A stretch of 64,000 bases of DNA. Origin: Bacilli bacterium (lineage in GTDB: Bacteria > Bacillota_I > Bacilli_A > ML615J-28 > CAG-698). Numbering within the stretch: position 1 is the stretch's first letter; every line of letters begins with the position of its first letter. The stretch lies in NCBI GenBank assembly GCA_041675865.1, contig JBAYTA010000001.1, forward strand, positions 6,332 through 70,331, in the 5' to 3' direction. The position numbers were made by a program, and so were the translations under genes. A model generated the notes under the pieces. That model saw only the letters and a list, made by a program, of their open reading frames with translations. It had not been told where the DNA came from and ran no database searches. Positions 22,268-64,000 of this stretch are shown here, one piece after another.

Positions 22268-23863
22268 TTAATTTAGATTTCTATTTTTATAGATAAATAA
22301 ACTACTAACTATTAATATCATTGAACATATTATCATAATTGTTGAAGTTAAGATATTAGTTTCAAGTGGATCAATATGATAAAAGGACGAAAAATACATT
22401 ATTGCTTTTGGAAGTTTTAAAACATTTTCTAGGTATAATGCAACAAAACTAAAAGCTATATAAACCCAAATTATCTTAGAGTACTTAATACCTATACTAT
22501 AAAGTATACAAGCAAGACTAAAAATTAGCCAAATAGCTGGTATAAAAGATAAACCAGTTTGAATTAATTTAGAAAAGCTCATAACTTCTAAAATAAACTC
22601 TCTTCCTGTAATCCACATACCTAGTACAATAATTAATTGAATAATAATTGAAAATAAAAATGCAAATATTATATGCTTTAGGAAATACTTAATTCTCGAA
22701 TATAGTCTTGAGTATATATTATCTAAAAATGAGTTTGCTTCTTCCTTAGTTAGTTTTAAAATAATAAATAAGGCAGGAATTAAACTAAATAATGTTATAA
22801 TTTTTAAAATATAGATTATTATAACTTCAGAATAATTTGCTGTATTTGATCCTAAGAATTGTTTCACAATTTCAATTTCATAAAATGCTTCAAACTCTTT
22901 AAAGATTGCTCCAAAGGCAGCTGTTAGGATAAATAAACTAACAGTCCATACTAAAATTTGGATTTTTTCTAAACGGAATATTAATCCAAAACTATTTTTA
23001 GAAAACTTAGATGCTTTAGTTCTACCTTTACTTGAATTATAAATACCTGAGCCAAAATCAATGTTTTTATAGAGGTAGAGGCTTAAAGCGAACAGTATTA
23101 TAATAAGAAGTAAGATTATTGTGATATATATTAAGTTATTTTTATAAAAAACCTGGACATTAAGTAATAATCCTAGTGGAGATATTAATGATATGAAGTT
23201 ATCTCCTACATCACCAATTGCTCTTATTAAATATGATACAAGTAGAATTAAGTATGAAAAATTATAAGCTGCACTTGCTGTATTAAATAATTTTGTTGCT
23301 ACAAATCCTACAAGAGCAAAGAAAAGTCCACCTAAAGCAAGGATTAATCCATAGATGATTGCACCAAGAGTTGTTGAACTAGGAATATTAATAATTATCA
23401 GTCCTATAGATACACTTAAAAAAATAATTAAATTTATTCCAATAATTACAACAAGAGAAGAGGTAAGATAAGTAAATCTATTTACTGGTTTAGATGTTAT
23501 TATTTCTATTAAACCAGCTTCTTCTGAAACTTTAGTAAATTTAATAGAAAAATAGATATTCATTACTGCTACTGCTATTAAAGTAAATAGTAATAATTCT
23601 TGAGAAAAAATTACTGTATGATTGAAAGCATCTATTGGATAAGCACTTCCAAGCAAGCCCTTCATAGCTGGATTTATCATTATATTTGCATAGTTTAAAA
23701 TTGCTTCTTCAGTCTCATATAAACTTGGATACAAATCTGCACTAACAAGAGTAATTCCTACAATGCTTATAAGCCAAATTAATATTTTCTTGAAATCGTT
23801 TTTTATTATAAGTTTATATAATAATAAATTAATTTTCTTCATATTAATTAGCCTTGTTTTCAT
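22268..23863 (-). CDS. ABC-2 type transporter permease (about 12 transmembrane helices)
   Basis: 531 aa and highly hydrophobic. It is translationally coupled to the upstream ATPase. Confidence 0.7.
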   Translation of the reverse strand: MKTRLINMKKINLLLYKLIIKNDFKKILIWLISIVGITLVSADLYPSLYETEEAILNYANIMINPAMKGLLGSAYPIDAFNHTVIFSQELLLFTLIAVAVMNIYFSIKFTKVSEEAGLIEIITSKPVNRFTYLTSSLVVIIGINLIIFLSVSIGLIIINIPSSTTLGAIIYGLILALGGLFFALVGFVATKLFNTASAAYNFSYLILLVSYLIRAIGDVGDNFISLISPLGLLLNVQVFYKNNLIYITIILLLIIILFALSLYLYKNIDFGSGIYNSSKGRTKASKFSKNSFGLIFRLEKIQILVWTVSLFILTAAFGAIFKEFEAFYEIEIVKQFLGSNTANYSEVIIIYILKIITLFSLIPALFIILKLTKEEANSFLDNIYSRLYSRIKYFLKHIIFAFLFSIIIQLIIVLGMWITGREFILEVMSFSKLIQTGLSFIPAIWLIFSLACILYSIGIKYSKIIWVYIAFSFVALYLENVLKLPKAIMYFSSFYHIDPLETNILTSTIMIICSMILIVSSLFIYKNRNLN

Positions 23864-27769: not shown

Positions 27770-29587
27770 ATGGATAGAAATAATTTACTAGAAAGACAAA
27801 AAAGAATAAGAAACTTTTCAATCATAGCACACATAGATCATGGAAAAAGTACACTCGCAGATAGAATTTTAGAATTAACACAAACTGTTGAGACAAGAAA
27901 CATGAAGCAGCAAATGCTTGACTCTATGGATTTGGAAAGAGAACGCGGAATTACAATTAAACTAAACGCTGTGCAAATTACATATAAGTCAAAAGACTCA
28001 ACTGAATATATATTACATTTAATAGATACCCCAGGTCATGTAGACTTTACTTATGAAGTATCTAGATCTCTAGCTGCATGTGAGGGGGCTATTTTAGTTG
28101 TAGATGCAGCACAAGGAATTGAAGCACAAACATTAGCAAATGCTTATCTTGCTATTGATAATGATTTACATATCATCCCTGTAATTAATAAAATTGACCT
28201 TCCAAATGCAGATCCAGAAAGGGTAAAACTTGAAATTGAAAATGTGGGACTTGATACAACACACACAATTTTAGCTTCTGCTAAAAATGGAATTGGGATT
28301 GAAGACATTTTAGAAGAAATAATTAGAAGTGTACCAGCGCCAACCGGAGACCCTGATGCACCATTAAAGGCTTTAATTTTTGACTCATATTATGATCAAT
28401 ACAGAGGAATCATACCATCAATTAGAATTATCGATGGAACTATAAAAAAAGGTGATAAAATATATATGATGTCTACAAAAGCTGTGCATGAAGTTGTAGA
28501 AGTTGGTATATATACACCTAGAGAAATTCAAAGAGATTTCTTGACTGTTGGTGATGTTGGTTGGATTAGTGCAGCAATTAAAGATATCAAAGATGTAAGA
28601 GTTGGGGATACAATTACCCATTTTAATAAAAAAGCACCTGTAGCATTACCGGGTTATAGAAAACTTAATCCAATGGTATTTAGTGGTCTATTCCCAATTG
28701 ATAATAAAGAATATGAAGAATTAAAGGAAGCTTTAGAAAAATTAATATTAAATGATGCTTCTTTAGTCTATGAACCTGAGACATCTAAAGCACTTGGATT
28801 TGGATTTAGGGTTGGATTTTTAGGACTCTTACATATGGATATTATTCAAGAAAGAATTGATCGAGAGTTTGGGATTCCATTAATTGCTACTGCTCCAAGT
28901 GTTATCTATAAAGTTAATCTAACTAATGGATCAATAGTTACAGTGCATAATCCTTCAGAAATGCCCGATCCAACTCATATAAAAGATATTGAAGAGCCTT
29001 ATGTAAATGCAACTATTATGAGTCCAAGTGATTATATCGGTGCTATAATGGAGTTATGCCAAAATAAAAGAGCAATCTTCAAAAATATGACTTATATTGA
29101 TACCAAAAGAGTAACTATTGAATATGAAATGCCACTTTCTGAAGTTGTATTTGATTTCTTCGATCGACTTAAATCTTCTACAAGAGGATATGCATCATTT
29201 GATTATCAATTTTCAAGATACTTACCTTCTAAATTAGTTAAAATGGATATTTTAATAAATGGAGAAAAAGTAGATGCTTTAAGTATGATTGTCCACCGCG
29301 ATGCTGGTTTTCGTCGTGGTAAAGCAATGACTGAGAAATTAAAAGACTTGATTCCAAGACAATTATTTGAAGTTCCAATTCAAGCTGCAATAGGTACAAA
29401 AATTATTGCTAGAAGTACAATAAAATCTATGGGCAAAAATGTGCTAGCTAAATGTTACGGTGGTGACATCACTAGAAAGAAAAAACTTCTTGAGAAACAA
29501 AAAGAAGGGAAAAAGCGCATGAAGACTGTTGGTAATGTAGAAATACCTCAATCAGCATTTCTTGCTGTACTTAAGATTGATGAATAA
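27770..29587 (+). CDS. lepA: elongation factor 4
   Basis: GTPase G1-G4 motifs 'AHIDHGKST' and 'DTPGHVDF', plus the LepA C-terminal domain. A TTGCAT-17-TAAAAT promoter lies upstream. Confidence 0.95.
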
Positions 29588-30707
29588 AATAGAAAGTTTA
29601 TATATACATATTCCATTTTGTTCAAAAATTTGTACTTATTGTGATTTCTATAAAATGGTTGCGAAGCCATATGTGAAAGAAAAATATGTTGAATATTTAA
29701 TAAAAGAACTTGAAATGAAAAAACAATATCTAACAAGTTTAAAAACTATCTTTATAGGTGGTGGAACACCTACTTGTTTATCTTTGGAATCAATGGAAAA
29801 GTTATTTAGTTATCTTAATCAATATATTGATAAGGATATTTTAATTGAATTTACAATTGAAGCAAATCCAAATGATATAACCCTTGATATGGCAAAACTA
29901 TTTAAAAAATACAATATAAATAGAGTTAGCCTTGGTGTACAAGGCCTAAAGGAAGAGAAATTAAAAATTTTAGGTAGAACACACAATGAAGAAGATGTAA
30001 AGAAAGCAATTAAAAATTTAATTAAAGCAAAGATTACAAATATAAATGCTGATATTATTTATGGAGTAGGTAAGGAAACATTTGCAGACATTAAATATGA
30101 TTTAGAAAGATTAATTAAATTTGGAGTAAAACATATATCAGCATATTCACTTATCTTAGAAGATAAAACTGTTTTAAAAAAATTATTTGATGAAAAGAAA
30201 TTTTTCTTATACGATGAAGATGAAGAAAGTAATTTATATAAACAAATAGTTAATTTCTTAAAGAAGAAAAAGTTTATTCATTATGAAATAAGTAATTTTT
30301 CAAAAAAAGATCAGCAATCAAATCATAATTTAGTATATTGGAATAATATGAATTATATAGGGGCTGGTGCGAGCGCTAGCTACTATATTGATAATATGCG
30401 ATATACTAACATCCGTAATTTAGAAAAATATTATCAAGGAATAGATAACAATCAGCTAAATTATGCGGCAGTTACTGAGTTAACTAAAGAAGATATGATG
30501 AGTGAAGAAATGATCATGGGCTTAAGAAAGATTGAAGGAATAAATATTTTAGATTTTAAAGCTAAATATTTACTTGCAATTGAAGAAGCTTTTCCAATTA
30601 TTAAAAAATTTATTAGTTTAGAATTACTTGAAATTAAAAACAACTATTTATTTATTCCTGAAGAAAAACTATATTTATCTAATGAGGTTTTAGTTAATTT
30701 CGTCTAG
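29580..30707 (+). CDS. hemW: radical-SAM heme chaperone HemW (HemN-like)
   Basis: The '[14 protein letters not shown]' CxxxCxxC motif. Its ATG overlaps the lepA stop. The lepA-hemW order matches Bacillus. Confidence 0.85.
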
Positions 30708-30719
30708 GAAAGGAATAAT

Positions 30720-31214
30720 TTGCTTAAAAATAATTTATTTAAAAACAGATTATTTGTATATTTACTAAGTTTATATTTGGTAGGTATAATATTTGGTATA
30801 ATTTTTGTGAAAACAAATGATTATGTTTTTAATAATCAAACTAAAAATTATATGAAAATATTTTTATCGAATTATTGGTATTTATTTGTAATTTGGTTAT
30901 TTGGGTTTTCTTTCTTAGGCTATATAGTAACCTCAAGCATTGTATTTTTTAGAGCACTTGTTTTTGGAATATTAGTAAAATTATTAATTGTGAGTAACTT
31001 TGGTCTATTTATAATATTATTACTTTTAGAAATATTAATATTTTTTCCTACGCTAATATTTTTAGCATATATATCTTTAAGTTTAAGTAAGGAAAATTTT
31101 AAAATATATATTGGTGGATTTTCAAATACATTTAATCTCTCAAAATATATTAATTTAATGTTAGTTATAACTGTTATTTGTGCTCTATACTCATTATTGA
31201 TTTATATAAATTAG
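30720..31214 (+). CDS. spoIIM: stage II sporulation protein M-like membrane protein
   Basis: It has SpoIIM-like topology and a central motif pattern. It sits next to xerD, as in B. subtilis. The start is TTG. Confidence 0.55.
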   Translation: MLKNNLFKNRLFVYLLSLYLVGIIFGIIFVKTNDYVFNNQTKNYMKIFLSNYWYLFVIWLFGFSFLGYIVTSSIVFFRALVFGILVKLLIVSNFGLFIILLLLEILIFFPTLIFLAYISLSLSKENFKIYIGGFSNTFNLSKYINLMLVITVICALYSLLIYIN

Positions 31215-31226
31215 TTGGTGGTTTAA

Positions 31227-32129
31227 ATGGATAAGTATTTAAAAGAATATATATATTACATTAAAGGTGAATTAAATCTTGGAACCAATACTGTAGAGTC
31301 TTATACGAAAGATATTGAACAGTATATTGATTTTCTTAAAACATATAGACACAAAAACAATCCAGAGGATATAGAAATTCCAGATATAAGAAACTATATG
31401 AGCAGTTTAAAAAGAAAGTTTTTAGCTGCTGGAACGCAAGCAAGAAAACTAACTGCGATAAAGAGTTTTCATAGATTTTTGTTTTTAGAAAAATATACTA
31501 CTAGAAATGTTTCTAAAACTATTTCTAGTCCAAAACAAGAAGACAAGCTTCCGATAGTTTTATCGATAGAAGAAGTTAAGATTTTACTTGATTCTTTAAA
31601 AAGTGATACGCCTCTTAATTTAAGAAATAAAGCTATGATTGAAGTTGCTTATGCATGTGGTTTAAGAGAAAGCGAGTTAATAGGATTAAAAATAAGTGAT
31701 TTGCACTTAAACCAAGGTTTAATAAATATATATGGTAAAGGTAACAAAGAAAGAATTGTTCCAATTAATAAAAAGGCAATTGCTACAATCAATGATTATT
31801 TAGAAAATTCTAGACCTATTTTACGTTCTAATCAAAGCAAAAATATTCTCTTTTTAACAAAATCCGGAAACGCTGTTCCAAGAACATATTTTTATAATAT
31901 TGTAAGAGATGCAGCTATTAATGCTGGATTAAGAAAAAAAGTAACTCCGCATATGCTAAGACATTCATATGCTTCACATTTACTTGAAAACGGATTAGAT
32001 TTACGTTTAATTCAAGAATTACTAGGGCATGAAGATATTAGTACCACTGAAATATATACTCATATAAATAATACAAAACTAAAAGATGTTTATATGTCAG
32101 CTCATCCAAGAGCTAAGAAAGGACATTAA
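31227..32129 (+). CDS. xerD: site-specific tyrosine recombinase XerD
   Basis: An N-terminal SAM-like domain and the catalytic R..HxxR..Y residues ('HMLRHSYASHLLENG..EIYTH'). It is about 300 aa. Confidence 0.85.
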   Translation: MDKYLKEYIYYIKGELNLGTNTVESYTKDIEQYIDFLKTYRHKNNPEDIEIPDIRNYMSSLKRKFLAAGTQARKLTAIKSFHRFLFLEKYTTRNVSKTISSPKQEDKLPIVLSIEEVKILLDSLKSDTPLNLRNKAMIEVAYACGLRESELIGLKISDLHLNQGLINIYGKGNKERIVPINKKAIATINDYLENSRPILRSNQSKNILFLTKSGNAVPRTYFYNIVRDAAINAGLRKKVTPHMLRHSYASHLLENGLDLRLIQELLGHEDISTTEIYTHINNTKLKDVYMSAHPRAKKGH

Positions 32130-33314
32130 ATGAAAAAATTTAAACGAATATTTTTAATAGTTGCAGATTCTGTTGGTGTTGGAGCACTTCCAGATGCATC
32201 TAATTATGGTGATGAGGGTACAAACACTTTAAAACATTTATCCTATGCAAAAAAAGATTTCTCTATTCCCAATTTAGAAAAGTTAGGAATAGGGAATATA
32301 ACTGAAATTAATAACACAAAATCTGTTGATCTTCCATTAGCATCTTACGGGAAGATGGCTGAAGTTAGTGTAGGAAAAGACACTTTAACTGGACACTGGG
32401 AAATTATGGGGTTAAAAGTAGATACACCATTCCCATCATTTACAGACAATGGTTTTCCAGATGAATTAATTAAAAAATTAGAACTAGAAACTAATCATAA
32501 ATTTATTGGAAATATTGCTGCTAGTGGAACTGAAATAATTAAAGACTTAGGTGAAGAACACATTAAAACTAAAGCTATTATTATATATACTTCATCTGAT
32601 TCTGTCTTGCAACTTGCTGCTAATGAAGCTGTTATTCCATTAGAAGAATTATACCGAGTTTGTGAGATAGCAAGAAAAATTACTCTAGAAAATCCTGCTT
32701 GGCAAGTAGGAAGAATTATCGCAAGACCTTTTATTGGTGACAATAAAGACAATTTCACAAGAACTCCTAATCGTCATGATTATTCAGTTCAACCATTCTC
32801 TAAAACCGCTTTAAATCATTTACAAGATAATGGTTATGATGTTATTTCTGTAGGTAAGATTTTTGATATATTTGATGGTCAAGGAATTGACGAAGCAAAT
32901 AAAATAAAAAGCAATCAAGAAGGAATGGATATAACAATCTCTCTTACAAAACGCGATTTTACTGGTTTGTGTTTTGTGAACTTAGTAGACTTTGATGCCC
33001 TATATGGGCACAGACGCAACCCACTTGGCTATGCAGAGTCAGTAGAAGAGTTTGATAGAAATGTTGGAATATTATTAAACAATTTAAACGACGATGATTT
33101 ATTAATCATTACTGCTGATCATGGTAATGATCCAACTCATTCAGGAACCGATCATACAAGAGAATACGTACCTTTATTAGTTTATAATAAGAATTTACAA
33201 GGTCAATATTTACGGATTAGAAACACATTTGCAGATATAGCTGCAACAATTTGTGATAATTTTAATGTACAAACAACAACAATTGGTACTAGTTTTCTTA
33301 AAAGCCTAAAGTAA
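32130..33314 (+). CDS. deoB: phosphopentomutase
   Basis: 'IFLIVADSVGVG' and a C-terminal 'TADHGNDPT' metal-binding motif. Confidence 0.9.
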   Translation: MKKFKRIFLIVADSVGVGALPDASNYGDEGTNTLKHLSYAKKDFSIPNLEKLGIGNITEINNTKSVDLPLASYGKMAEVSVGKDTLTGHWEIMGLKVDTPFPSFTDNGFPDELIKKLELETNHKFIGNIAASGTEIIKDLGEEHIKTKAIIIYTSSDSVLQLAANEAVIPLEELYRVCEIARKITLENPAWQVGRIIARPFIGDNKDNFTRTPNRHDYSVQPFSKTALNHLQDNGYDVISVGKIFDIFDGQGIDEANKIKSNQEGMDITISLTKRDFTGLCFVNLVDFDALYGHRRNPLGYAESVEEFDRNVGILLNNLNDDDLLIITADHGNDPTHSGTDHTREYVPLLVYNKNLQGQYLRIRNTFADIAATICDNFNVQTTTIGTSFLKSLK

Positions 33315-36912: not shown

Positions 36913-37494
36913 TTGAAAAAATATTATAAAACTAGAAAAAGATTTTTTATCGTAGTAATTTGCTTTATTACTTTAATATCAGGATATAGTATATTAAAAG
37001 GTATAATAAATAAAAATACCAATTCAGATCAATTAGCTGAATTTGGTTTTAATAATATAACAATAGAAGAACTAGTTCAAGGACTTGATTCTAATGATAT
37101 AAATAAACCAAATTTAAGTGCATCAATTACAGGGACTCATTTACTTCTGGCAAATGCAGATAAATCTGTTAAGATCCCTTTAAGTAATGATAAATTCTAT
37201 GTGTCATTTGCACCCTATATAAATAATACCCATACTTGTAGTAATCATAATTTAATTACTTGCACAAGTGAGCTTAAAAATGAATCTTTCCATGTTCTTA
37301 TATTAGATGAAACTGGTAAGGCTATTATAGATAAATATGTGCAAAGTATGGATAATGGTTTTATAGGCATGTGGATGCCAAAAAACATAACAGGCAAATT
37401 AATTGTCTCTTATAATGGATTAAAAGCAAGTACAAATATCACTACATTTAATGATAGTAATACTTGCATCACTACACCATTAAAATTAAATTAA
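36913..37494 (+). CDS. small secreted/lipid-anchored Cys-containing protein (hypothetical)
   Basis: A TTG start, an N-terminal signal anchor, and four Cys residues in 'HTCSNHNLITCTSE'. Confidence 0.5.
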   Translation: MKKYYKTRKRFFIVVICFITLISGYSILKGIINKNTNSDQLAEFGFNNITIEELVQGLDSNDINKPNLSASITGTHLLLANADKSVKIPLSNDKFYVSFAPYINNTHTCSNHNLITCTSELKNESFHVLILDETGKAIIDKYVQSMDNGFIGMWMPKNITGKLIVSYNGLKASTNITTFNDSNTCITTPLKLN

Positions 37495-44282: not shown

Positions 44283-45067
44283 ACATTTTTCCCAAATAAA
44301 TAGTGGACAATATTTAATTTTAAATCTCTTGCAAACTTGTAGGCTTTTTTAACATTTACATCACCTGTATAAGAGATTTTATGATTGTCTTCACCAATTA
44401 TAACTTTCGCCTTTTCATATTCTTGAACAATTTTCCAAAACTCGATTCTAGGATAAATATGAACAATATCTCCATCTTGATTAGTTATTGGTTTTCTTCT
44501 AATACCGTTAGCATTAACTTCTAATAAAACATTATATTTAATACTAGCTTCAATAATTTCTCGACTTACCTTTTCAGTCATTTGATTCCATGTTTGATAA
44601 TTAAATAAAAACAAATCAGGATGAGCTAATATTTTAAAATAACCAGTATTCATTCCTTCAATAACTTGATCTTTATATAAAACAACATTCTCTGCTGTCA
44701 TTTCTCTATAAATATCATATAGTTTATTTTTATTTCTAATAATATGCTGGCCTAAAATTAAATAATCTAACTCATCTAATAATTTTTTATAATAATCATT
44801 GTATTCATTCAGATATTCGATTTCTAAGCCTTTATATATTTTAATTTTATCACCATATTCTTTTATTGCAGCATCTAAAGAAGGTAAATAAATATTTCTA
44901 TATTCTTGTTTATTCATTCGAAATGTCCATTCATCTAAGAGTGGACCATGGTCACTTATACCAATTTCTTCATATTTTAATTCTATAGCTTTTTTAATAT
45001 AATCGGCTGGCATACCCTCTGCATGCTTACATAATTTGATATGTGTGTGATAATTTGTTTTATTCAT
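44279..45067 (-). CDS. PHP-domain phosphoesterase, HisJ (histidinol-phosphatase) family
   Basis: 'YHTHIKLCKHAEG' and 'GISDHGP' are HisJ-type PHP metal-binding motifs. Confidence 0.7.
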   Translation of the reverse strand: MNKTNYHTHIKLCKHAEGMPADYIKKAIELKYEEIGISDHGPLLDEWTFRMNKQEYRNIYLPSLDAAIKEYGDKIKIYKGLEIEYLNEYNDYYKKLLDELDYLILGQHIIRNKNKLYDIYREMTAENVVLYKDQVIEGMNTGYFKILAHPDLFLFNYQTWNQMTEKVSREIIEASIKYNVLLEVNANGIRRKPITNQDGDIVHIYPRIEFWKIVQEYEKAKVIIGEDNHKISYTGDVNVKKAYKFARDLKLNIVHYLFGKNV

Positions 45068-46088
45068 AATTAAATCCTTTATATATTTTTACCCATTTTG
45101 CACTTCTTCCCTTGCCCAAAGGTTTAATTCGCCCTTCATCACGCATTTTCATCAAAGCTCTATTAATTGTAGATTCACTAACATATGGATGGATAATCCT
45201 AATTTCATCTTTTGTGAAAATGTCTGGAAGCTTGGAAATAGTATTACCTATATTATCAGCTTTATTTAAGTTTGAATCAAATTTATAATCTTTAATAATA
45301 CTATAAGCTTTTTCATAACCATTTATTATTATTTTATCCATAAATCTAATAAAACCTAATGTTTGCGCAAATCCTTCTTTCCAATTAAAACTTGCATTTT
45401 TAACTTCAGTTTTGAATTCATTGTAATTTTCATATAATAGTTCAAAAAAGGAAATATATTTAAATGCTTCTAAATCAGATTTAAAAATTAATAAATAAAG
45501 TAATACAAAACTTGATGTAAAGTTGTTTTCTGTAAAAGGTGCGATGTTGTAAAAATCTATAAAGTAATTAAAAAACAAAGTTGTTCTTTCGTATGTATTT
45601 CTTTGAAGATAGATTTCCATTTGCTCATTAATTTCGTCTAAAATAAGTCTTTTACTTTTTGCTGCTTGACTTTTTAAAATAGCTCTTTTATTTGTTTCTA
45701 CAAAATCAAATTTAATATCTTTATAATGAGAATAAATATAATTTATTATATTTAAAACATCATTGCTTTGAAATCTTTGATGCTGATAGTTCCTTTGAAT
45801 ATTAGTTAAGGTTTCTTTTAAATTATAAAGTGTTGTTTCTTCTTTATTTCTAGGAGTTGAGTTTTTAGTTATAATCAAACGTGTTCTAGAATCAGTAATA
45901 TCTAGTTCTAATATTTGTGATAGAAAAAAAGTATCTCTTTCAATAGTTTGATCAATTATCTTATCAAGATCATTTTTTACAGCATCTTTAAAAAACTTAT
46001 TTTGACCTATCCATTTATAGATATTTGATAAAGAAACTATAATATCATTAGGGATAATGAACCTATCTATATTTAAAACTGTACTCAT
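45060..46088 (-). CDS. Fic-family-like protein with degenerate active-site motif and C-terminal winged HTH
   Basis: The central 'IAPFTENNFTSSFVLL' aligns to the Fic 'HPFx[DE]GNGRxxR' motif, but His, both Gly and both Arg are replaced. The C-terminal 'RIKPLGKGRSAKWVKI' resembles the Fic-associated wHTH. Confidence 0.55.
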   Translation of the reverse strand: MSTVLNIDRFIIPNDIIVSLSNIYKWIGQNKFFKDAVKNDLDKIIDQTIERDTFFLSQILELDITDSRTRLIITKNSTPRNKEETTLYNLKETLTNIQRNYQHQRFQSNDVLNIINYIYSHYKDIKFDFVETNKRAILKSQAAKSKRLILDEINEQMEIYLQRNTYERTTLFFNYFIDFYNIAPFTENNFTSSFVLLYLLIFKSDLEAFKYISFFELLYENYNEFKTEVKNASFNWKEGFAQTLGFIRFMDKIIINGYEKAYSIIKDYKFDSNLNKADNIGNTISKLPDIFTKDEIRIIHPYVSESTINRALMKMRDEGRIKPLGKGRSAKWVKIYKGFNYE

Positions 46089-58338: not shown

Positions 58339-58845
58339 TTAGATTTCAAATATGTAACCTAAAGGCGATATAAACGTCAATACAACGAAAAGTGTTGCAA
58401 TGACTATATAATTTGCTATACCTATTAATAAACTACGATTCAACTTAATTCCTTGGATGAAATAAGTTGCTATTGAACCAGCAATTATTGATATAAAATA
58501 AACTATATTAATTGCAATAATATTATTAAAGACCCAAGTTTTAGAATAGATATTAAAAATAACTAAAGTCATTGTAGACATTACAAAAACCCCAAAGACT
58601 CTAGATAATATATAATTATTTGGTAGATCAAAAGATATAAAATATTCAATAATCATTAACAAAGAAATAGCAAAGAAATAGTTTTTCAATATCTCAAAGA
58701 TAGTTATTTTATTAGGCAATAAATTACTAGCACCTACAATTCTTAAACTTTGCACTGTTAATATTAATATATATAATATAACTCCAATAAATAAAATTTC
58801 ATTGATCAATCTAGACTTTTTAAATAATGTCATTCTTATCACCAA
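58339..58845 (-). CDS. polytopic membrane protein (hypothetical)
   Basis: 168 aa with five hydrophobic helices, sitting between the lipoprotein and glyQS. Confidence 0.45.
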   Translation of the reverse strand: MVIRMTLFKKSRLINEILFIGVILYILILTVQSLRIVGASNLLPNKITIFEILKNYFFAISLLMIIEYFISFDLPNNYILSRVFGVFVMSTMTLVIFNIYSKTWVFNNIIAINIVYFISIIAGSIATYFIQGIKLNRSLLIGIANYIVIATLFVVLTFISPLGYIFEI

Positions 58846-58937
58846 TAATATTATTAATATCCATTTAATTAATTATACAATTTATTAACAAAACAAAACC
58901 TGCATTTTACTGCAGGTTTTATCCTTTAAAAATCAGA

Positions 58938-59906
58938 TTATTTTACTTTGTTATAAAGATCTTGCAATACTTTAATGTAATCATTTGTTTTTACTGTAAC
59001 ACCAGTAACAACTAATGTTGTACCATCTTTAGAAATACCACGATCTTTAATTGATTTTAATCCTTCGATTCCGTTTTCTAAAACATAATCTGTAATCATC
59101 TTAGATTGTTTGAACCATTCGTTTTTAGATTTGCCTTCAGCAACTACTGACCAATCACCGTTTTTGAATTCGTATTCTGGTCCATTGCCTTCCATATTAT
59201 AATCATCACCTAATTCAAGTTTTGATTTTGCATTCCAAACGAATTTGTTATCAACTACAGATCCTTGAATTGTATCAAGTTTTAATTCAGTGAATTTGCC
59301 ATCTTTGTCAACTTTAGCAGTTGCAAATACTACAGCGTTAGAAGCAGGAACCCATGCTTTAACAACGCCATCTTTAGCCATTTGTAAAGCTTCTTTTGCT
59401 AATTCTGAATATCCACCATCTTTAATAGTAACACCAGCATCAACATTTGTGAATCTGTCATCAACTTTTTCAACAGCTTCAGGTCCATTTGCTAAGAAGA
59501 AATCTTCAATAAGTTTAGCTTGTTCAAACCATTCTTTTTCAGATTTTTTATCTGCAACAACTTCCCATTTTCCATCTTTGAATTCATATTTAGGTCCATT
59601 ACCTTTCATACCATACTCATTACCAAGTTCTTTTTTAGTCTTAGCATTGAAAGCATAAGTATAAACCGGTTCTTCTTCTGTACCAGTATTTGTTTTTGTG
59701 TTTTGTAATACATCGATATAATAAGATTTAACCTTATCATTTTCGATAGTTACAGAAACGCTAGTAACTTGTGGTCCATCGTTAGAATGAGTTTCCCACT
59801 TGAAAGCAGTGTAAACACCATCTGCTGCATAAGTTCTTTCGCCACAAGCAACGAACAATAATGCTGATACTGCAACAATAAACACTAATAAAAATTTTTT
59901 AAACAT
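58938..59906 (-). CDS. lipoprotein with an internal tandem duplication (possible FMN-binding repeats)
   Basis: A signal peptide with lipobox 'LFVAC'. Two about 150-aa repeats ('YEFKDGKWEVVADKKSEKEWFEQAK..' and 'YEFKNGDWSVVAEGKSKNEWFKQSK..') each end in a G-V-T motif ('DAGVTIKDG' and 'VTGVTVKTN'). Confidence 0.55.
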   Translation of the reverse strand: MFKKFLLVFIVAVSALLFVACGERTYAADGVYTAFKWETHSNDGPQVTSVSVTIENDKVKSYYIDVLQNTKTNTGTEEEPVYTYAFNAKTKKELGNEYGMKGNGPKYEFKDGKWEVVADKKSEKEWFEQAKLIEDFFLANGPEAVEKVDDRFTNVDAGVTIKDGGYSELAKEALQMAKDGVVKAWVPASNAVVFATAKVDKDGKFTELKLDTIQGSVVDNKFVWNAKSKLELGDDYNMEGNGPEYEFKNGDWSVVAEGKSKNEWFKQSKMITDYVLENGIEGLKSIKDRGISKDGTTLVVTGVTVKTNDYIKVLQDLYNKVK

Positions 59907-60050
59907 TAGTCTTTTCTCCTCCTTGTTATTTGATTAAGACATAATAATTATATCATAAACACTTGACGAATTCAATTTTTTCCAAGAAAATGCCAAATGT
60001 AAATGTTTACTTAATTTTATTTACATTTGACAATTTTTTTCTTGTTTTAA

Positions 60051-60368
60051 TTAATTGTTTTCGCTAAGTTTACGATCGTAATCTTCAAGATAAGCTTTGA
60101 TTTTATCACGCATATCTTGTTTTCCAGGTTTGCATAGTTTTGAGTCCGCACCGTCAAAAACTATTGCATTTGCAAGTCCATTACAGCCAGGATGACCGCA
60201 TGCACCGCAGTTATAACCAGGTAATAAATTGGTAATATCTTCAACTCTTGGATCTTCTTCTACATAAAATGCAATCGAAGCAACTGATATTAATACACCG
60301 AATACTCCACCAGTTATAGCCAAAACTATAGCTGGTAATAAATAAGATTGAAACACACTTAAAATCAT
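60051..60368 (-). CDS. rnfB: Rnf complex subunit B, minimal form (N-terminal Fe-S domain only)
   Basis: An N-terminal transmembrane helix plus 'CGACGHPGCNGLANAI..C'. It is 105 aa and lacks the usual ferredoxin domains. Confidence 0.65.
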   Translation of the reverse strand: MILSVFQSYLLPAIVLAITGGVFGVLISVASIAFYVEEDPRVEDITNLLPGYNCGACGHPGCNGLANAIVFDGADSKLCKPGKQDMRDKIKAYLEDYDRKLSENN

Positions 60369-60940
60369 ATGTTTAATGCTCCAAATCTAGAAAATATCAT
60401 TGCAAGAAGTCCTGCAGTAACTAATGCAATAGGAACTCCTTTAAACGCAACTGGAACATCAGCTTTCAATAATCTTACTCTTATAGTTGAAAATAAATAG
60501 ATTACAAATAAGAAACCAACGCTTGATGCAAATGCAAATACAAATGCACTTACAAACGTATAATCAGGAGTTGCAACCATTTTCGCAAGACCTAATACAG
60601 CACAGTTAGTTGTAATTAATGGAAGGTATACACCTAATGCTTTATATAAACCAGGTGATACTTTTTTAATAAACATTTCAATTATTTGAACTAATCCTGC
60701 AATCACAAGAATAAAGATAATTGTTTGCATGTAAACCATATTAAATGGTCTTAATACAAATGTATATAATAGATAAGCAACAGTAGATGATAAAGTAATA
60801 ACAAATACAACTGCTAGTCCCATACCAACTGAAGATTCACGTTTTTCAGATACCCCAAGTAATGGGCAAATACCTAAAAATCTATTTAGTACAACATTTT
60901 GAATTAATATAGCAGATATAGCTAGTGAGAATAGATTCAT
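60365..60940 (-). CDS. rnfA: Rnf complex subunit A
   Basis: 'NVVLNRFLGICPLLGVS' and six transmembrane helices. Confidence 0.9.
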   Translation of the reverse strand: MNLFSLAISAILIQNVVLNRFLGICPLLGVSEKRESSVGMGLAVVFVITLSSTVAYLLYTFVLRPFNMVYMQTIIFILVIAGLVQIIEMFIKKVSPGLYKALGVYLPLITTNCAVLGLAKMVATPDYTFVSAFVFAFASSVGFLFVIYLFSTIRVRLLKADVPVAFKGVPIALVTAGLLAMIFSRFGALNI

Positions 60941-61563
60941 TATTTCTTCACCTCTTTACGTTTATTATTAATTATATTAGCAAGTCCAATGATAATTCCT
61001 AGAATAATAAATGCTGATGGAGGGTTAAGGAAGAAATTATTAAAGAACTTAGCTGAACTATCAAAAATTTGTAATTCAACACCAGACCAAATTGAAATTG
61101 ATCCTGTTCCTAGGAATTCTCTTATAATAGCCATAACTATTAAAACTCCACTATAACCTACTGCCATACCAACTGCATCTAAGAATGAATTACCTACATT
61201 GTTTTGTGAAGCAAATGCTTCAGCACGTCCTAATATAATACAGTTAACAACAATCAATGAAATCCATACACCTAAATTGTTATACAATTCTGGTAAGAAT
61301 GCATTCATTAACATTTCTGCTAATGTAACTAAAGTTGCAACTACAACTATGTAAATAGGAATTCTAATTTCATGAGGTACGATTTTTCTAATCAATGAAA
61401 TTATAATATTAGATAATACGATTACAAATGTAAAAGCTAAACCTAATCCAATAGAATCTTTTAGAGATCCAGTAACAGCAAGAACTGAACAAAGACCTAA
61501 TAAAGATACTAAAACTGGATTTTCATTCCACATACCTTTTAATAAATTTTCTCTTTTAGTCAT
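60940..61563 (-). CDS. rnfE: Rnf complex subunit E
   Basis: 'LLGLCSVLAVTGSLKDSIGLGLA', a paralogue of RnfA. Confidence 0.9.
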   Translation of the reverse strand: MTKRENLLKGMWNENPVLVSLLGLCSVLAVTGSLKDSIGLGLAFTFVIVLSNIIISLIRKIVPHEIRIPIYIVVVATLVTLAEMLMNAFLPELYNNLGVWISLIVVNCIILGRAEAFASQNNVGNSFLDAVGMAVGYSGVLIVMAIIREFLGTGSISIWSGVELQIFDSSAKFFNNFFLNPPSAFIILGIIIGLANIINNKRKEVKK

Positions 61564-62122
61564 TAGTTACACCTCCAAGATCAGCTTTAATTGTTTTGAA
61601 GTGATCAGCAGCCGCATCAAAGCCAGCAATGATTGCACCTAGTGTAAACTGGGGTGTTACACCAGCTACTACTGGAGAATAACTATCAACATTTTGATCA
61701 GCCATACCGAAATCATGATCCATAATTTTATCAGCAAAGCTTGGTGTATCATCATGAGAAATCATTTTTGCTTTTCCAAAAGTTCCATCAACTTTTATTT
61801 CCACAAAACATCTTACAAATCCTGTTTTTTCATAACCAGGAACTGCAGTTTGGTAAATTACAGCTGCTAAGCTACCATCTTCATTAAATGCAAAGAAGAT
61901 TTCTTGGATAGCATCACTTGATTCAGGATAATCAACTTTTTTACCAAATGAGTAATCAGCATAATCAAATTCTTTTCTTAATGCACCAACAACTTGTTCT
62001 TTTGCTCTTTCTTCAATTATTGGTGAAGTTAAAGCATTAACAGCACCAAGTAATACTCCAGCAATTAATCCTAACACTACTAAGAATACAGTATATTTTA
62101 ATATTTTTTTATTATTATTCAT
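61556..62122 (-). CDS. rnfG: Rnf complex subunit G (FMN-binding)
   Basis: An N-terminal transmembrane helix and an FMN_bind domain. The flavin-site motif reads 'VAGVTPQFT', so Thr is kept but the context is G-V-T rather than the canonical G-A-T. Confidence 0.85.
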   Translation of the reverse strand: MNNNKKILKYTVFLVVLGLIAGVLLGAVNALTSPIIEERAKEQVVGALRKEFDYADYSFGKKVDYPESSDAIQEIFFAFNEDGSLAAVIYQTAVPGYEKTGFVRCFVEIKVDGTFGKAKMISHDDTPSFADKIMDHDFGMADQNVDSYSPVVAGVTPQFTLGAIIAGFDAAADHFKTIKADLGGVTND

Positions 62123-64000
62123 CTGTACCCTCCAAATATTTCAAATAATCTAAAGCCATATTTGCAGCTTTCACAATCGCTCTTGATGTAACAGAAGCTC
62201 CAGATACAACTTCTACTTCACTTAAATCAGCTTGTTTAGAAACAATTTCAGTAGGGATTTTATCTTGTGGATGAATTCCTCCACCAACGTCACTCCATTC
62301 ACCATGCATATAAGATTCGCCTGTAGTTTCATTTTTTAAATCATTTGTTTCTACAGCAGTGATCTTAAACTCTTCATCAAATGTGAATGTTGTTGTGATA
62401 GGATTTTTAAATCCTTTTGTTCTAACAACGATTGTTGTTTCAGTCTTACTTACATAATAAGCATCAAATTTATTAGCATCTATTGCAGCTTCTACATCAG
62501 CTAAAATTTCAGCAGGAACAGTTGATGTTATTTCATAATCAGTATCTGTTGTAACAATAGTTTTACTATCAGCATCTCTAAATACATAAACAAATTCTAA
62601 TGTTTCTAAATCTTGAGATACACCAACTAATGTAAGTTCAGTAATAGTATCTAAATAATCAACATATGCCTGAGCAACGCCTACAGCATTTTTAATAGCA
62701 TTAGAAGTAACAGTAGCACCTGCAACAACACCAACACTACTTAAATCATCTTGATTAGCAATAATATCACCAGGAATTTTATCTTTTGGATGAACTCCGC
62801 CACCAACATTTTGCCATTCTCCGCTTGGATATGACTCGTTATATGTAACTACAAAATCAGTAATAACAAAATCATTATCATATGTAATAACATTTGTGAC
62901 AGCACCAGCAAATCCACCTGTAATAATAGTTAATTCTAAGTAGTCAGCACCTTCATTAGCGCTTTGTACAAAGTTTCTAATTTTATTATCATTGATTAAT
63001 TTTGCTAATTCTTCTTTTGATTCTGCATTATCAAATTCTTGATTGCTTACTTGTTTTATAGTAAAGTCTTGAGCAGTAGTAACAGTAAACTCTTCACCAT
63101 TAGATGTAAATTTGTAAACAAAATCAAATGATTTATAGTCTTGTGAACTTTCTACATATTCAAATTCAGGCATTACAACTGGTTCTACAATGCTTTTAAC
63201 AACTGGGAATACTGAAATACCAGCTAATAATAATCCCACTAAAGTATATGATAAAACCATTTTTTTCTTGTTAGGTTCAACTCTTAATTTTGTTGCAAAT
63301 CTTTCGATTATAGCAGTAAACATATTAAGAGCTAAAATAGATACTGCAACACCTTCTGGATTATTAGATGCAAACCTAAACACAACAGTTAATACACCAA
63401 GACCTAAAGCATAAATAATTTTACCATTAGGGTTTCTTGGACTAGTTACTGGTTCAGTTGCCATGAATACAGCACCAAACATTAAACCACCACTAAATAT
63501 ATTAAATAAAGCAAAGTTTAATGTACCAGCATAACCATTGATTGCACCAATAATATAAGTTAATACGAATACAGTTCCGATATAGATTACTGGAATTCTC
63601 CAGTTAATTACTTTTCTCACTAATAGATAGATTAAACCTACTAAACAAAGTAATGCACTTGTTTCTGCAATTACTCCAGGATTAAATCCTAAGAATAAAT
63701 TTAAAATGCCATATTTTTCTAACATAGCTTCATAACCAACAAAAATGTTAGCAAATTCTGCTGGGTTTTTAATTGCACTAAGTGGTGTTGCACCAACTGT
63801 TATAGCTTCAGTAGGATTTAAAAATCCTTTTGATCCAAAACTAGTAGCTCCACCCATAAGTCCAAAATATGAATAAGTAGTTAGAAAAACAAATCCTATT
63901 AAAGCAGGGTTAAATATATTATGGCCAAATCCACCAAATAGTAATTTCGCAATTACAGTTGCAAATATTGTACCAATAAATAATACCCAAATTGGAGTTG
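62115..64000 (-). CDS. rnfD: Rnf complex subunit D fused to two C-terminal FMN-binding domains (N-terminus beyond the window)
   Basis: An RnfD/NqrB membrane core with 'TVGATPL'. A 355-aa extension carries two FMN_bind-like domains with 'VAGATVTS' and 'VSGASVTS'. The ORF stays open to nt 64000. Confidence 0.8.
   Translation of the reverse strand, partial: TPIWVLFIGTIFATVIAKLLFGGFGHNIFNPALIGFVFLTTYSYFGLMGGATSFGSKGFLNPTEAITVGATPLSAIKNPAEFANIFVGYEAMLEKYGILNLFLGFNPGVIAETSALLCLVGLIYLLVRKVINWRIPVIYIGTVFVLTYIIGAINGYAGTLNFALFNIFSGGLMFGAVFMATEPVTSPRNPNGKIIYALGLGVLTVVFRFASNNPEGVAVSILALNMFTAIIERFATKLRVEPNKKKMVLSYTLVGLLLAGISVFPVVKSIVEPVVMPEFEYVESSQDYKSFDFVYKFTSNGEEFTVTTAQDFTIKQVSNQEFDNAESKEELAKLINDNKIRNFVQSANEGADYLELTIITGGFAGAVTNVITYDNDFVITDFVVTYNESYPSGEWQNVGGGVHPKDKIPGDIIANQDDLSSVGVVAGATVTSNAIKNAVGVAQAYVDYLDTITELTLVGVSQDLETLEFVYVFRDADSKTIVTTDTDYEITSTVPAEILADVEAAIDANKFDAYYVSKTETTIVVRTKGFKNPITTTFTFDEEFKITAVETNDLKNETTGESYMHGEWSDVGGGIHPQDKIPTEIVSKQADLSEVEVVSGASVTSRAIVKAANMALDYLKYLEGTDE

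What the first reader, a model, noticed from the sequence alone, without database searches (positions are those of the whole stretch)
58938..59906. Tandem-duplicated lipoprotein immediately downstream of rnf with the same G-V-T motif as the local RnfG
The 322-aa lipoprotein consists of two homologous halves. Each half ends in a Gly-Val-Thr motif ('DAGVTIKDG' and 'VTGVTVKTN') in the position where FMN_bind domains carry the flavinylated Thr. The RnfG encoded 2 kb upstream uses the same non-canonical 'AGVT' context instead of 'SGAT'. This suggests a shared flavin-transferase specificity. The architecture resembles the two-FMN lipoprotein PplA of the Listeria flavin-based extracellular electron transfer system, here genetically linked to Rnf rather than to Ndh2/DmkA. 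The 5-TM protein at 58339-58845 could be part of the same unit.
Basis: inference. Interest (0 to 1): 0.55.

Follow-up and report, generated by a model that had tools for sequence, protein, structure and literature searches.

The report
Two-flavin lipoprotein beside an Rnf operon
The gene encodes a membrane-anchored surface protein made of two copies of a divergent flavin-carrying domain; in many relatives of the wall-less bacteria it sits directly after the genes of the Rnf redox pump and probably carries electrons outside the cell, so it is a new member of a protein class already described, not a new kind of system.

Summary
ORF 58938-59906 (-) encodes a 322-aa lipoprotein (Cys21) made of two homologous halves (hhalign 99.95%, E 3e-38).

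Each half is a divergent FMN-binding domain:
- Pfam does not detect it.
- The family profile hits PDB 2kzx (E 6.8e-10), placing LP Thr160 on the Thr of 2kzx's SGAT.
- The Thr/Ser at both sites is essentially invariant in 112 homologues. The motif is [A/S/T]-G-[V/A]-[T/S].

Linkage to rnf is conserved in both directions. 40 of 71 informative species-level genomes have rnfB immediately upstream. 43 of 63 informative short-rnfB metagenome loci have the lipoprotein downstream.

It matches the "FMN-bind2" double-flavinylated proteins of Huang et al. 2024. It is related to the flavinylated T. pallidum lipoprotein TP0171.

Not supported:
- The 5-TM gene as part of the unit.
- G-V-T as a shared transferase signature. 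RnfD in this operon and most RnfGs in relatives use G-A-T/S.

No ApbE lies within the window or any linked locus. Flavinylation and electron flow from Rnf are inferred.

Verdict: new member of a known kind, with moderate interest.

The parts
58938..59906 (-). Lipoprotein gene (322 aa + stop) encoding two tandem divergent FMN-binding domains
59844..59906 (-). Signal peptide with lipobox L-F-V-A-C (Cys21 is the lipidation site)
   Evidence: Read from the sequence. Cys21 is invariant in 80 homologues.
59367..59828 (-). FMN-binding-like domain 1 (residues about 27-180); predicted flavinylation site Thr160 (codon 59427-59429) in N-V-D-A-G-V-T
   Evidence: The HMM alignment to 2kzx places LP 'vagvT' on 2kzx 'ISGAT'. 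T/S is present in 112/112 homologues. Codon position.
58941..59366 (-). FMN-binding-like domain 2 (residues 181-322); predicted flavinylation site Thr304 (codon 58995-58997) in L-V-V-T-G-V-T
   Evidence: hhalign of domain 1 against domain 2 gives 99.95%, E 3e-38, with the two G-V-T sites in the same column. T/S is present in 111/112 homologues.
59947..59975 (-). Promoter-like site TTGAAT-17-TATAAT with a TG extension, about 40 bp upstream of the ATG
   Evidence: Best minus-strand match, 10 of 12. This is a consensus match only. The whole region gave 20 promoter-like hits against 13.4 expected from shuffles.
59983..60044 (-). Strong AT-rich hairpin directly after the rnfB stop codon, between rnfB and the lipoprotein promoter (terminator, attenuator or operator; not resolved)
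   Evidence: RNA fold dG -20.2 kcal/mol, z -7.1, with 0 of 200 shuffles as stable.
58886..58925 (-). Intrinsic-terminator-like hairpin plus U-tract directly after the lipoprotein stop codon
   Evidence: RNA fold dG -19.1 kcal/mol, z -5.4, followed by UUUUGUUUUG. The pattern scanner did not list it.
60051..60368 (-). rnfB, minimal form (105 aa): TM helix plus the single small 4Fe-4S domain, without the C-terminal polyferredoxin domain
   Evidence: Pfam FeS PF04060 only. TIGR01944 matches model positions 8-91 of 190. The homologues are 95-110 aa in 36 genome loci.
60365..60940 (-). rnfA
   Evidence: Pfam Rnf-Nqr, E 7.9e-52.
60940..61563 (-). rnfE
   Evidence: Pfam Rnf-Nqr, E 6.6e-61.
61556..62122 (-). 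rnfG, divergent (188 aa); predicted flavinylation site Thr156 (codon 61655-61657) in V-V-A-G-V-T
   Evidence: TIGR01947 E 2e-11 (below its cut-off) and Pfam FMN_bind E 0.09. The motif column is shown. Codon position.
62115..64000 (-). rnfD (742 aa in full; runs off the window end) fused through an extra TM helix (63198-63260) to two canonical FMN_bind domains. Predicted sites: Thr (63786-63788, V-G-A-T-P-L), Thr (62712-62714, A-G-A-T), Ser (62193-62195, S-G-A-S)
   Evidence: Pfam NQR2_RnfD_RnfE plus FMN_bind x2. Full length seen in L001. Codon positions.
58339..58845 (-). 5-TM protein of unknown function. Listed because the finding named it; probably NOT part of the unit
   Evidence: No Pfam or NCBIfam hit. 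It is separated from the lipoprotein by a terminator. It lies downstream of the lipoprotein in only 5 of 81 loci. It is unrelated to the ApbE-associated Hpre_diP_synt_I protein.

Best explanation
The gene encodes a lipid-anchored, extracytoplasmic protein built from two tandem copies of a divergent FMN-binding domain. The domain belongs to the Tp15/3o6u branch of the fold and most likely to the 'FMN-bind2' subtype.

An ApbE-type FAD:protein FMN transferase, encoded elsewhere in the genome, is predicted to attach FMN by a phosphoester bond to Thr160 and Thr304. This would give a compact two-flavin module on the outer face of the cell membrane.

In this lineage the Rnf complex already exposes extra flavins on that face: RnfG plus two FMN_bind domains fused to RnfD. 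The lipoprotein is proposed to exchange electrons with them. It would then act as a side branch that links the NADH/ferredoxin pool, through Rnf, to acceptors or reductases outside the membrane. That makes it a flavin counterpart of the multihaem cytochrome MmcA in the Methanosarcina rnf operon, and of PplA in Listeria.

Shown here: the fold and its homology, the duplication, conservation of the modification-site residue, the lipobox, and conserved gene order with rnf.

Inferred: covalent flavinylation, electron exchange with Rnf, and the direction and final partner of electron flow.
For: Homology and fold.
- The 80-sequence profile hits PDB 2kzx at E 6.8e-10 and 3o6u at E 0.012, with G-V-T aligned on S-G-A-T.
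- Foldseek gives probability 1.00 and 0.96 to the same two structures.
- 2kzx, 3o6u and TP0171 (sequence recalled from memory) all pass Pfam FMN_bind.
- 5 of 10 multi-repeat relatives pass it too and a sixth is borderline.

Site conservation. T/S is essentially invariant at both sites, Gly is common at -2, and the family consensus D-x-x-[A/S/T]-G-[V/A]-[T/S] keeps the canonical spacing. Homologues with G-A-T or G-A-S number 15 of 112 at site 1 and 27 of 112 at site 2.

Tolerance of the variant. A-to-V in the motif still allowed about 50% flavinylation, and D-to-A had minor effects, in K. pneumoniae fumarate reductase (PMC12052999).

Precedents.
- TP0171, a lipoprotein of the same branch, is flavinylated at Thr114 by the T. 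pallidum ApbE homologue (PMC4436053).
- Two-domain FMN-bind2 proteins were modelled as a pseudo-symmetric two-flavin unit (PMC11334425).
- RNF clusters with extra flavinylated domains were proposed to feed extracytosolic acceptors (PMC8238504).
- MmcA is an Rnf-operon carrier used for extracellular transfer (PMC12174285).

Linkage. rnfB lies immediately upstream on the same strand, 103-719 bp away, in 40 of 71 informative species-level genomes. These fall in several lipoprotein clades at 35-45% identity. 43 of 63 informative short-rnfB metagenome loci carry the lipoprotein 65-903 bp downstream. A four-domain version occupies the same position in L032.
Against: - No ApbE gene lies in the 64-kb window, in the contig flanks, or in any of the 80 lipoprotein loci. 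The probes used do find ApbE next to rnf in relatives that lack the lipoprotein.
- This particular protein departs from D-x-x-[S/T]-G-A-[S/T] at two positions in both sites: there is no Asp at -6, and Val replaces Ala at -1.
- The gene appears to have its own promoter and is bracketed by strong hairpins, so it need not be co-transcribed with rnf.
- In 29 of 71 genomes, mostly Acholeplasmataceae, it lies beside lepA, hemW, xerD and deoB with no redox neighbour.
- Profile comparison with the operon's own canonical FMN_bind domains aligns only the motif region, at low probability.
- Nothing here shows contact with Rnf.
Confidence: 0.55

Rival explanations
1. It is a covalent (or tightly bound) two-flavin lipoprotein, but it works independently of Rnf. 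It would take electrons from another membrane donor or from free flavins, for example to detoxify oxygen or reduce extracellular substrates. Its position after rnfB would be inherited gene order without a functional meaning.
For: - It has its own promoter-like site and is flanked by hairpins.
- 29 of 71 genomes keep the gene, with intact T/S sites, beside housekeeping genes and far from rnf.
- 20 of 63 short-rnfB loci lack it.
- The multi-FMN protein SaFMN3 reacts with O2 on its own (PMC10339131).
Against: - The rnfB-lipoprotein order is kept across several deep clades at 35-45% protein identity, and in both search directions. That is hard to explain without selection.
- The lipoprotein-linked Rnf operons are the ones that carry additional extracytoplasmic FMN_bind domains.
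Confidence: 0.25
2. The domains keep the FMN-binding fold but are not flavinylated in this organism. The protein would be a surface lipoprotein with another role, such as non-covalent flavin or ligand binding, or a structural or antigenic function.
For: - Both sites lack Asp at -6 and have Val instead of Ala.
- No ApbE was found nearby.
- Pfam FMN_bind does not recognise the protein.
- In the closest clade the second site further loses Gly in some members, for example A-S-V-S and A-T-I-T.
Against: - The T/S is essentially invariant at both sites over the whole family, including members with canonical G-A-T.
- A-to-V and D-to-A are tolerated by a studied ApbE.
- In this clade the Rnf subunits, which must be flavinylated to work, have also lost the Asp. 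The local transferase therefore evidently does not need it.
Confidence: 0.12
3. It is an accessory factor for Rnf biogenesis or flavin supply, holding or delivering flavin to RnfG/RnfD on the outer face, and not an electron carrier.
For: It is linked to rnf. T. pallidum work ties periplasmic flavin handling to Rnf (PMC4436053).
Against: No known FMN_bind-type domain acts as a flavin chaperone. The conserved Thr/Ser points to a covalent cofactor, not a transferable one. Nothing here speaks for this role specifically.
Confidence: 0.05

Closest known systems
FMN-bind2 double-flavinylated proteins (Huang et al. 2024, mSystems, PMC11334425; examples Erysipelotrichaceae NTW96865.1 2x, Hujiaoplasma nucleasis WP_312031774.1 6x)
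   Same: - The domain is enlarged relative to 3o6u-type FMN-bind1: 142-153 aa against about 120.
- Copy number is even: 2 here, with 4 and 6 in relatives.
- No InterPro or Pfam assignment.
- The same taxonomic neighbourhood (Erysipelotrichaceae; Izemoplasmatales-like).
- A confident compact two-domain model (pTM 0.88).
   Different: - Sequence identity to the published examples could not be checked here.
- Only the insertion between strand 3 and helix 1 is evident against 2kzx, not the strand-1/strand-2 insertion.
- The parts of the paper read here do not report linkage to rnf, the dominance of G-V-T, or experimental flavinylation of this subtype.
TP0171 (Tp15) of Treponema pallidum and the structural-genomics proteins 3o6u (CPE2226) and 2kzx (A3DHT5)
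   Same: - They are the nearest solved relatives of this protein.
- TP0171 is also a lipoprotein.
- TP0171 is flavinylated by the ApbE homologue Ftp at the equivalent Thr, in an organism whose redox balance is thought to rely on Rnf.
- JGI labels several homologues with the Tp15 COG name 'major membrane immunogen'.
   Different: - Those proteins have a single domain of 120-140 aa and the canonical [S/T]-G-A-T motif, and Pfam recognises them.
- This protein is a tandem pair with about 30 extra residues per domain and a G-V-T motif.
- The TP0171 sequence used here was recalled from memory. It is consistent with the paper's Cys19 and Thr114.
PplA of Listeria monocytogenes / Cad of Enterococcus faecalis (extracellular electron transfer lipoprotein)
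   Same: A lipoprotein of about 310 aa with two flavinylated FMN-binding domains on the outer face of a single-membrane cell. It acts as the last protein-bound carrier of an outward electron path.
   Different: - PplA is fed by Ndh2 and demethylmenaquinone. It is clustered with apbE (fmnB), dmkA, eetA and eetB; none of these is in the window.
- cad-apbE clusters were reported only in genomes without rnf (PMC7074142).
- Here the neighbour is rnf and no apbE is near.
- Direct sequence comparison with PplA was not possible.
Multi-flavinylated RNF clusters (Meheust et al. 2021, eLife, PMC8238504) and MmcA, the multihaem cytochrome of the Methanosarcina acetivorans rnf operon
   Same: Extra extracytoplasmic redox carriers are encoded with rnf. 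They were proposed (flavins) or shown (MmcA) to branch electrons from Rnf to acceptors outside the membrane.
   Different: - The 2021 survey found flavinylated domains through Pfam FMN_bind, which does not detect this lipoprotein. It describes multi-domain RnfGs, not a separate lipid-anchored protein.
- MmcA uses haems, not flavins.
RnfG / NqrC
   Same: The same fold superfamily, with a Thr-linked FMN on the outer face.
   Different: - RnfG has an N-terminal TM anchor and one domain, and it is a core subunit.
- hhalign between the lipoprotein halves and the operon's RnfG family gives under 3% probability.
- The lipoprotein is not a second RnfG.

Membership tests
FMN_bind superfamily (Pfam PF04205; ApbE-substrate domain) | The FMN-binding domain fold | tested here: met
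FMN_bind superfamily (Pfam PF04205; ApbE-substrate domain) | A match to the Pfam model above its gathering score | tested here: not met
   No hit at E<=1 for the protein or at E<=10 for either half, nor for homologues that carry G-A-T. Membership is reached only transitively. The family profile hits 2kzx at E 6.8e-10, and 2kzx passes Pfam. 5 of 10 multi-repeat relatives pass and a sixth is borderline.
FMN_bind superfamily (Pfam PF04205; ApbE-substrate domain) | The flavinylation motif D-x-x-[S/T]-G-A-[S/T], with the last residue modified | tested here: inconclusive
   The final T/S and the Gly are conserved, and the family consensus is D-x-x-[A/S/T]-G-[V/A]-[T/S]. In this protein both sites lack the Asp and have Val for Ala. 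Single A-to-V and D-to-A changes are tolerated in one studied system.
FMN_bind superfamily (Pfam PF04205; ApbE-substrate domain) | Extracytosolic location | tested here: met
   A signal peptide with a lipobox; Cys21 is invariant.
FMN_bind superfamily (Pfam PF04205; ApbE-substrate domain) | Covalently bound FMN, and an ApbE transferase in the genome | not testable with these tools
   No ApbE lies in the window, the contig flanks or 80 related loci. Whole genomes could not be searched. ApbE is present next to rnf in relatives without the lipoprotein.
FMN-bind2 subtype (Huang et al. 2024) | A domain of about 160 aa with insertions relative to FMN-bind1, in even-numbered copies that form a pseudo-symmetric pair | tested here: inconclusive
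   The domains are 153 and 142 aa. About 29 extra residues lie between strand 3 and helix 1 relative to 2kzx. Forms with 2, 4 and 6 copies exist. pTM 0.88 implies fixed domain packing.
FMN-bind2 subtype (Huang et al. 2024) | BLAST similarity to the published examples (NTW96865.1, WP_312031774.1) | not testable with these tools
   Those sequences could not be retrieved. Cluster look-ups gave no matching accession.
PplA/Cad extracellular-electron-transfer lipoprotein | A lipoprotein with two FMN-binding domains | tested here: met
PplA/Cad extracellular-electron-transfer lipoprotein | A gene cluster with ndh2, dmkA/dmkB, eetA/eetB and fmnB (apbE) | tested here: not met
   Pfam scans of nearly all window ORFs of 100 aa or more found none of these. 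The neighbours are rnf and glyS.
PplA/Cad extracellular-electron-transfer lipoprotein | Orthology by sequence | not tested
   No PplA or Cad sequence was available. The nearest relatives found belong to the Tp15/3o6u branch instead.
RnfG subunit | An N-terminal TM anchor, a single FMN_bind domain, and a match to TIGR01947 | tested here: not met
   It has a lipobox instead of a TM anchor, and two domains. NCBIfam gives no rnfG hit. hhalign to the RnfG family gives under 3%. A separate rnfG gene is present.

The most novel reading that the evidence does not exclude
The Rnf complexes of this clade form a distinct, outward-directed variant. It combines four features:
- a minimal RnfB that lacks the ferredoxin-docking polyferredoxin domain;
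- two extra FMN domains fused to, or encoded next to, RnfD;
- a divergent RnfG;
- a dedicated lipid-anchored two-flavin protein.

Together these give six predicted covalent flavins, which would form a flavin wire exporting (or importing) electrons across the single membrane. That would be an Rnf-driven, cytochrome-free and quinone-free route of extracellular electron transfer in Izemoplasmatales, Acholeplasmatales-like Bacilli and their spore-forming relatives. The lipoprotein would be its terminal module.
Probability: 0.22. Interest if true: 0.65.

Novelty: new member of a known kind. Interest (0 to 1): 0.4.

Why it matters
Pfam-based surveys of protein flavinylation miss this family. It comprises about 1,000 clusters at 50% identity and is annotated 'hypothetical protein' at NCBI. 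The flavin-based extracytoplasmic redox capacity of Izemoplasmatales, Acholeplasmatales and related Bacilli is therefore under-counted.

The tight, two-way gene linkage to an unusual Rnf gives a concrete and testable candidate for how fermentative, cytochrome-poor and partly wall-less bacteria might couple their NADH/ferredoxin pool to electron acceptors outside the cell. That Rnf has a minimal RnfB and extra external flavin domains.

The family also offers a natural G-V-T variant of the ApbE recognition motif, which is relevant to flavin-tagging tools. All of this extends published ideas and does not overturn them.

Tried and rejected
- Pfam and NCBIfam on the protein and on each half gave no FMN_bind hit. 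Homology had to be shown through a family profile against PDB and by fold search.
- hhalign of each half against alignments of the operon-type RnfG and of the RnfD-fused FMN_bind domains aligned only about 20 residues around the motif, at 1-21% probability. This is not usable as evidence.
- The afdb50 fold library was not available.
- The supplements of Meheust 2021 held as text contain no Izemoplasma or Acholeplasma entries.
- The ApbE search covered the window, the contig flanks L001 and L085, and 80 genome loci. It used Pfam on the ORFs, a recalled E. coli ApbE and a Pfam-verified ApbE from relative L141. Nothing was found near the lipoprotein. The probes are valid, because they find ApbE in lipoprotein-less relatives.
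- Idea rejected: the 5-TM protein is the ApbE-associated 'Gx transporter' (Hpre_diP_synt_I). BLASTP gives E 14 and there is no Pfam hit.
- Idea rejected: a riboswitch lies in the rnfB-lipoprotein spacer. Rfam finds only a T-box, at 7874-8071.
- Idea rejected: G-V-T marks a genome-wide transferase specificity.
- Cluster look-ups intended to tie the family to the published FMN-bind2 accessions returned no names.
- The pattern scanner did not list the terminator after the gene. Folding shows it clearly.
Full report
**What is in the sequence**

The ORF at 58938-59906 on the minus strand encodes 322 aa, with a strong RBS (AAGGAGGAG) upstream. The N-terminus MFKKFLLVFIVAVSALLFVAC is a lipoprotein signal peptide, and Cys21 is invariant in 80 homologues.

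The protein is a tandem duplication.
- BLASTP of the halves gives 54% identity over 68 aa, E 4e-27.
- Profile-profile comparison of the two halves gives 99.95% probability, E 3e-38, over 124 columns. The two G-V-T motifs fall in the same column.

The window has 27% G+C. A near-identical protein in NCBI is MFA7434791.1, 'hypothetical protein [Bacilli bacterium]'.

**What the domain is**

Pfam and NCBIfam do not recognise the protein or either half. Other evidence places it in the FMN-binding fold.

- A profile of 80 homologues hits PDB 2kzx at E 6.8e-10 and 3o6u at E 0.012. LP '...vidnvagvTikdg' aligns on 2kzx '...HTDAISGATIKVK'.
- The AlphaFold model built on that alignment is confident (pLDDT 94.4, pTM 0.88).
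- Foldseek returns 2kzx and 3o6u with probabilities 1.00 and 0.96.
- 2kzx and 3o6u pass the Pfam FMN_bind threshold, as does the T. pallidum lipoprotein TP0171. I recalled the TP0171 sequence from memory; it reproduces the published Cys19 and Thr114.
- An exhaustive HMMER search finds 1,057 clusters (50% identity) at E<=1e-3, with one to eight repeats per protein.
- Of ten such relatives, five pass Pfam FMN_bind and a sixth is borderline.

The halves are therefore divergent FMN-binding domains of the Tp15/3o6u branch.

**The modification site**

In 112 homologues the residue aligned with Thr160 is T or S in 112. The residue aligned with Thr304 is T or S in 111, the other being an alignment gap. 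Gly at -2 is present in 104 and 83. The residue at -1 is V (97 and 82) or A (15 and 27).

The family consensus D-N-V-[A/S/T]-G-V-T and D-D-L-A-G-V-T keeps the spacing of the ApbE motif D-x-x-[S/T]-G-A-[S/T].

A review of ApbE reports results for K. pneumoniae fumarate reductase. A-to-V lowered flavinylation to about 50%, D-to-A had minor effects, and T-to-A abolished it.

In this particular protein both sites lack the Asp (N-V-D-A-G-V-T and L-V-V-T-G-V-T). Flavinylation is therefore likely but not shown.

**Is G-V-T a shared signature with RnfG?**

The local RnfG does have A-G-V-T in the canonical column. However, RnfD in the same operon carries V-G-A-T-P-L, A-G-A-T and S-G-A-S. Among relatives, RnfG is usually G-A-T while the lipoprotein is G-V-T. 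G-V-T is thus a trait of the lipoprotein family.

A different pattern does covary. In the window's clade the Asp at -6 is lost from both the Rnf sites and the lipoprotein sites, while Izemoplasmatales keep it in both (Spearman 0.55, p 0.001, n = 33). This fits one transferase serving both. It is not corrected for phylogeny and amounts to roughly one event.

**Gene neighbourhood**

The same contig (L001) shows rnfC, rnfD (742 aa), rnfG, rnfE, rnfA, rnfB (105 aa), the lipoprotein, a 164-aa membrane protein and glyS.

I fetched 80 species-representative genome loci with the family profile. Of these, 71 are informative:
- 40 have rnfB (or rnfA) immediately upstream on the same strand, 103-719 bp away;
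- one has rnf 4.8 kb upstream;
- one has rnf on the other strand;
- 29 have no rnf within the available flank.

The rnf-adjacent state is spread over several lipoprotein clades. These cover Izemoplasmatales, 'Bacilli'/'Bacillales' MAGs and some Acholeplasmatales. Acholeplasmataceae instead place the gene beside lepA, hemW, xerD and deoB.

In the reverse direction I fetched 80 metagenome loci with the short RnfB. Of the 63 informative ones, 43 carry the lipoprotein 65-903 bp downstream of rnfB.

**Transcription signals**

The 144-bp spacer after rnfB holds a strong hairpin (dG -20.2, z -7.1). After it comes the best promoter-like site on that strand, TTGAAT-17-TATAAT with a TG extension.

A terminator-like hairpin with a U-tract follows the lipoprotein stop (dG -19.1, z -5.4). 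The gene may therefore be transcribed on its own.

The 5-TM gene lies beyond that terminator. It has no family match and follows the lipoprotein in only 5 of 81 loci. It is unrelated to the ApbE-associated Hpre_diP_synt_I protein. I do not count it as part of the unit.

**The transferase**

No ApbE, Ndh2 or DmkA is present in the window, in the contig flanks or in any lipoprotein locus.

The probes work. In nine short-rnfB loci that lack the lipoprotein, an ApbE homologue lies next to rnf. In L141 the order is rnfB, ApbE (Pfam 108 bits), NusG_II, Hpre_diP_synt_I.

An intact Rnf needs ApbE for RnfD and RnfG (established knowledge; PMC8238504). One is therefore expected elsewhere in the genome, but I could not check this.

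**How it most likely works**

The operon predicts six covalent flavin sites: one in the RnfD membrane domain, two in its fused external domains, one in RnfG and two on the lipoprotein.

Published work proposed that RNF clusters with extra flavinylated domains open a second path to extracytosolic acceptors. The Methanosarcina rnf operon encodes a multihaem cytochrome that does this.

I propose that the lipoprotein is the lipid-anchored end of such a branch. This step is inference.

The local RnfB is minimal. It has the TM helix plus the small 4Fe-4S domain, without the two-to-seven-cluster ferredoxin-acceptor domain described for characterised RnfBs. That is a further sign that this Rnf type is unusual.

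**Comparison with known families**

The best published match is the 'FMN-bind2' subtype of Huang et al. 2024. It has these properties:
- domains of about 160 aa;
- even copy numbers that form a pseudo-symmetric two-flavin unit;
- no InterPro assignment;
- examples from an Erysipelotrichaceae bacterium (2x) and Hujiaoplasma (6x).

Here the domains are 153 and 142 aa. Forms with two, four and six copies exist, and the model is compact. I could not compare sequences directly, so membership remains likely but unproven.

The protein works like PplA in architecture but lacks PplA's gene context. PplA-type cad-apbE clusters were reported only in genomes without rnf. It is not an RnfG.

**Verdict**

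The object is a new, Pfam-invisible member of a known class of flavinylated extracytoplasmic proteins. Its conserved link to an atypical Rnf is worth an experiment.

Noticed in passing
window 60051-60368 (-); L006-L084; L087-L166: RnfB is only 105 aa: a TM helix plus the small single-cluster FeS domain. It lacks the C-terminal polyferredoxin domain that accepts electrons from ferredoxin in characterised Rnf complexes. The short form (95-110 aa) is conserved in 36 genome loci and in nearly all of 80 metagenome loci.
   Followed up: partly
window 62115-64000 (-), continuing in L001 5564-7792: RnfD is 742 aa. The normal membrane domain is followed by an extra TM helix (63198-63260) and two canonical FMN_bind domains. 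In Izemoplasmatales the same two domains are a separate gene of about 390 aa between rnfD and rnfG.
   Followed up: partly
window 59983-60044 (-): A very stable AT-rich hairpin (dG -20.2 kcal/mol, z -7.1) lies right after rnfB and just upstream of the lipoprotein's promoter-like site. It could be a terminator, an attenuator or a regulator binding palindrome (CAAATGTAAA / TTTACATTTG).
   Followed up: partly
window 58995-63788 (all six predicted flavin sites); L014, L018, L034, L035, L039, L044, L051: In this clade every predicted flavinylation site, in RnfD, RnfG and the lipoprotein, has lost the 'strictly conserved' Asp at -6 of the ApbE motif. Izemoplasmatales keep it everywhere. This suggests a lineage-specific change in transferase recognition.
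   Followed up: partly
L141 5998-8199; also L139, L148, L157, L136, L161, L164, L165: In relatives with the short RnfB but without the lipoprotein, the position after rnfB is taken by ApbE, a NusG_II protein and an Hpre_diP_synt_I ('Gx transporter') protein. ApbE-type and lipoprotein-type loci did not overlap in the sample.
   Followed up: partly
L032 (lipoprotein position, 580 aa; P0121/P0300); P0122 (796 aa): Four-domain and six-domain versions of the same lipoprotein exist. The four-domain one sits directly downstream of rnfB in an Izemoplasmatales MAG.
   Followed up: partly
window 2958-3953 (+), 4439-5254 (+); L085 4835-5344: Sporulation genes are present in a 27% G+C genome whose Rnf and lipoprotein genes are closest to Izemoplasmatales/Acholeplasmatales-type bacteria: SpoIVB peptidase and Spo0A in the window, and SpoIIIAH just outside it. 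This looks like a spore-forming relative of the wall-less lineages.
   Followed up: no
L015, L016, L020, L023, L024, L032, L038, L053, L057, L060, L065, L084 (downstream of the lipoprotein): In many Izemoplasmatales the histidine-utilisation genes follow the lipoprotein: a histidine ammonia-lyase-like gene and a urocanase-like gene, judged by eye from the sequences. Urocanate is a known acceptor of flavinylated extracytosolic reductases elsewhere. No such reductase was seen here.
   Followed up: no
window 7874-8071 (+): A T-box leader (Rfam RF00230, 97.8 bits) lies upstream of the histidyl-tRNA synthetase gene at 8119-9381.
   Followed up: no
window 27770-33314 (+): The block lepA - hemN/hemW-like radical SAM - xerD-like recombinase - phosphopentomutase-like gene directly flanks the lipoprotein in Acholeplasmataceae. 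Here it lies about 25 kb away, which points to rearrangement between the lineages.
   Followed up: no
window 12491-13609 (+), 22268-23863 (-), 45060-46088 (-): Three sizeable ORFs (372, 531 and 342 aa) have no Pfam match at E<=1e-3.
   Followed up: no
window 36913-37494 (+), 20025-20636 (-): A CueP-type periplasmic copper-binding protein and an Fe/Mn superoxide dismutase are encoded in the window.
   Followed up: no
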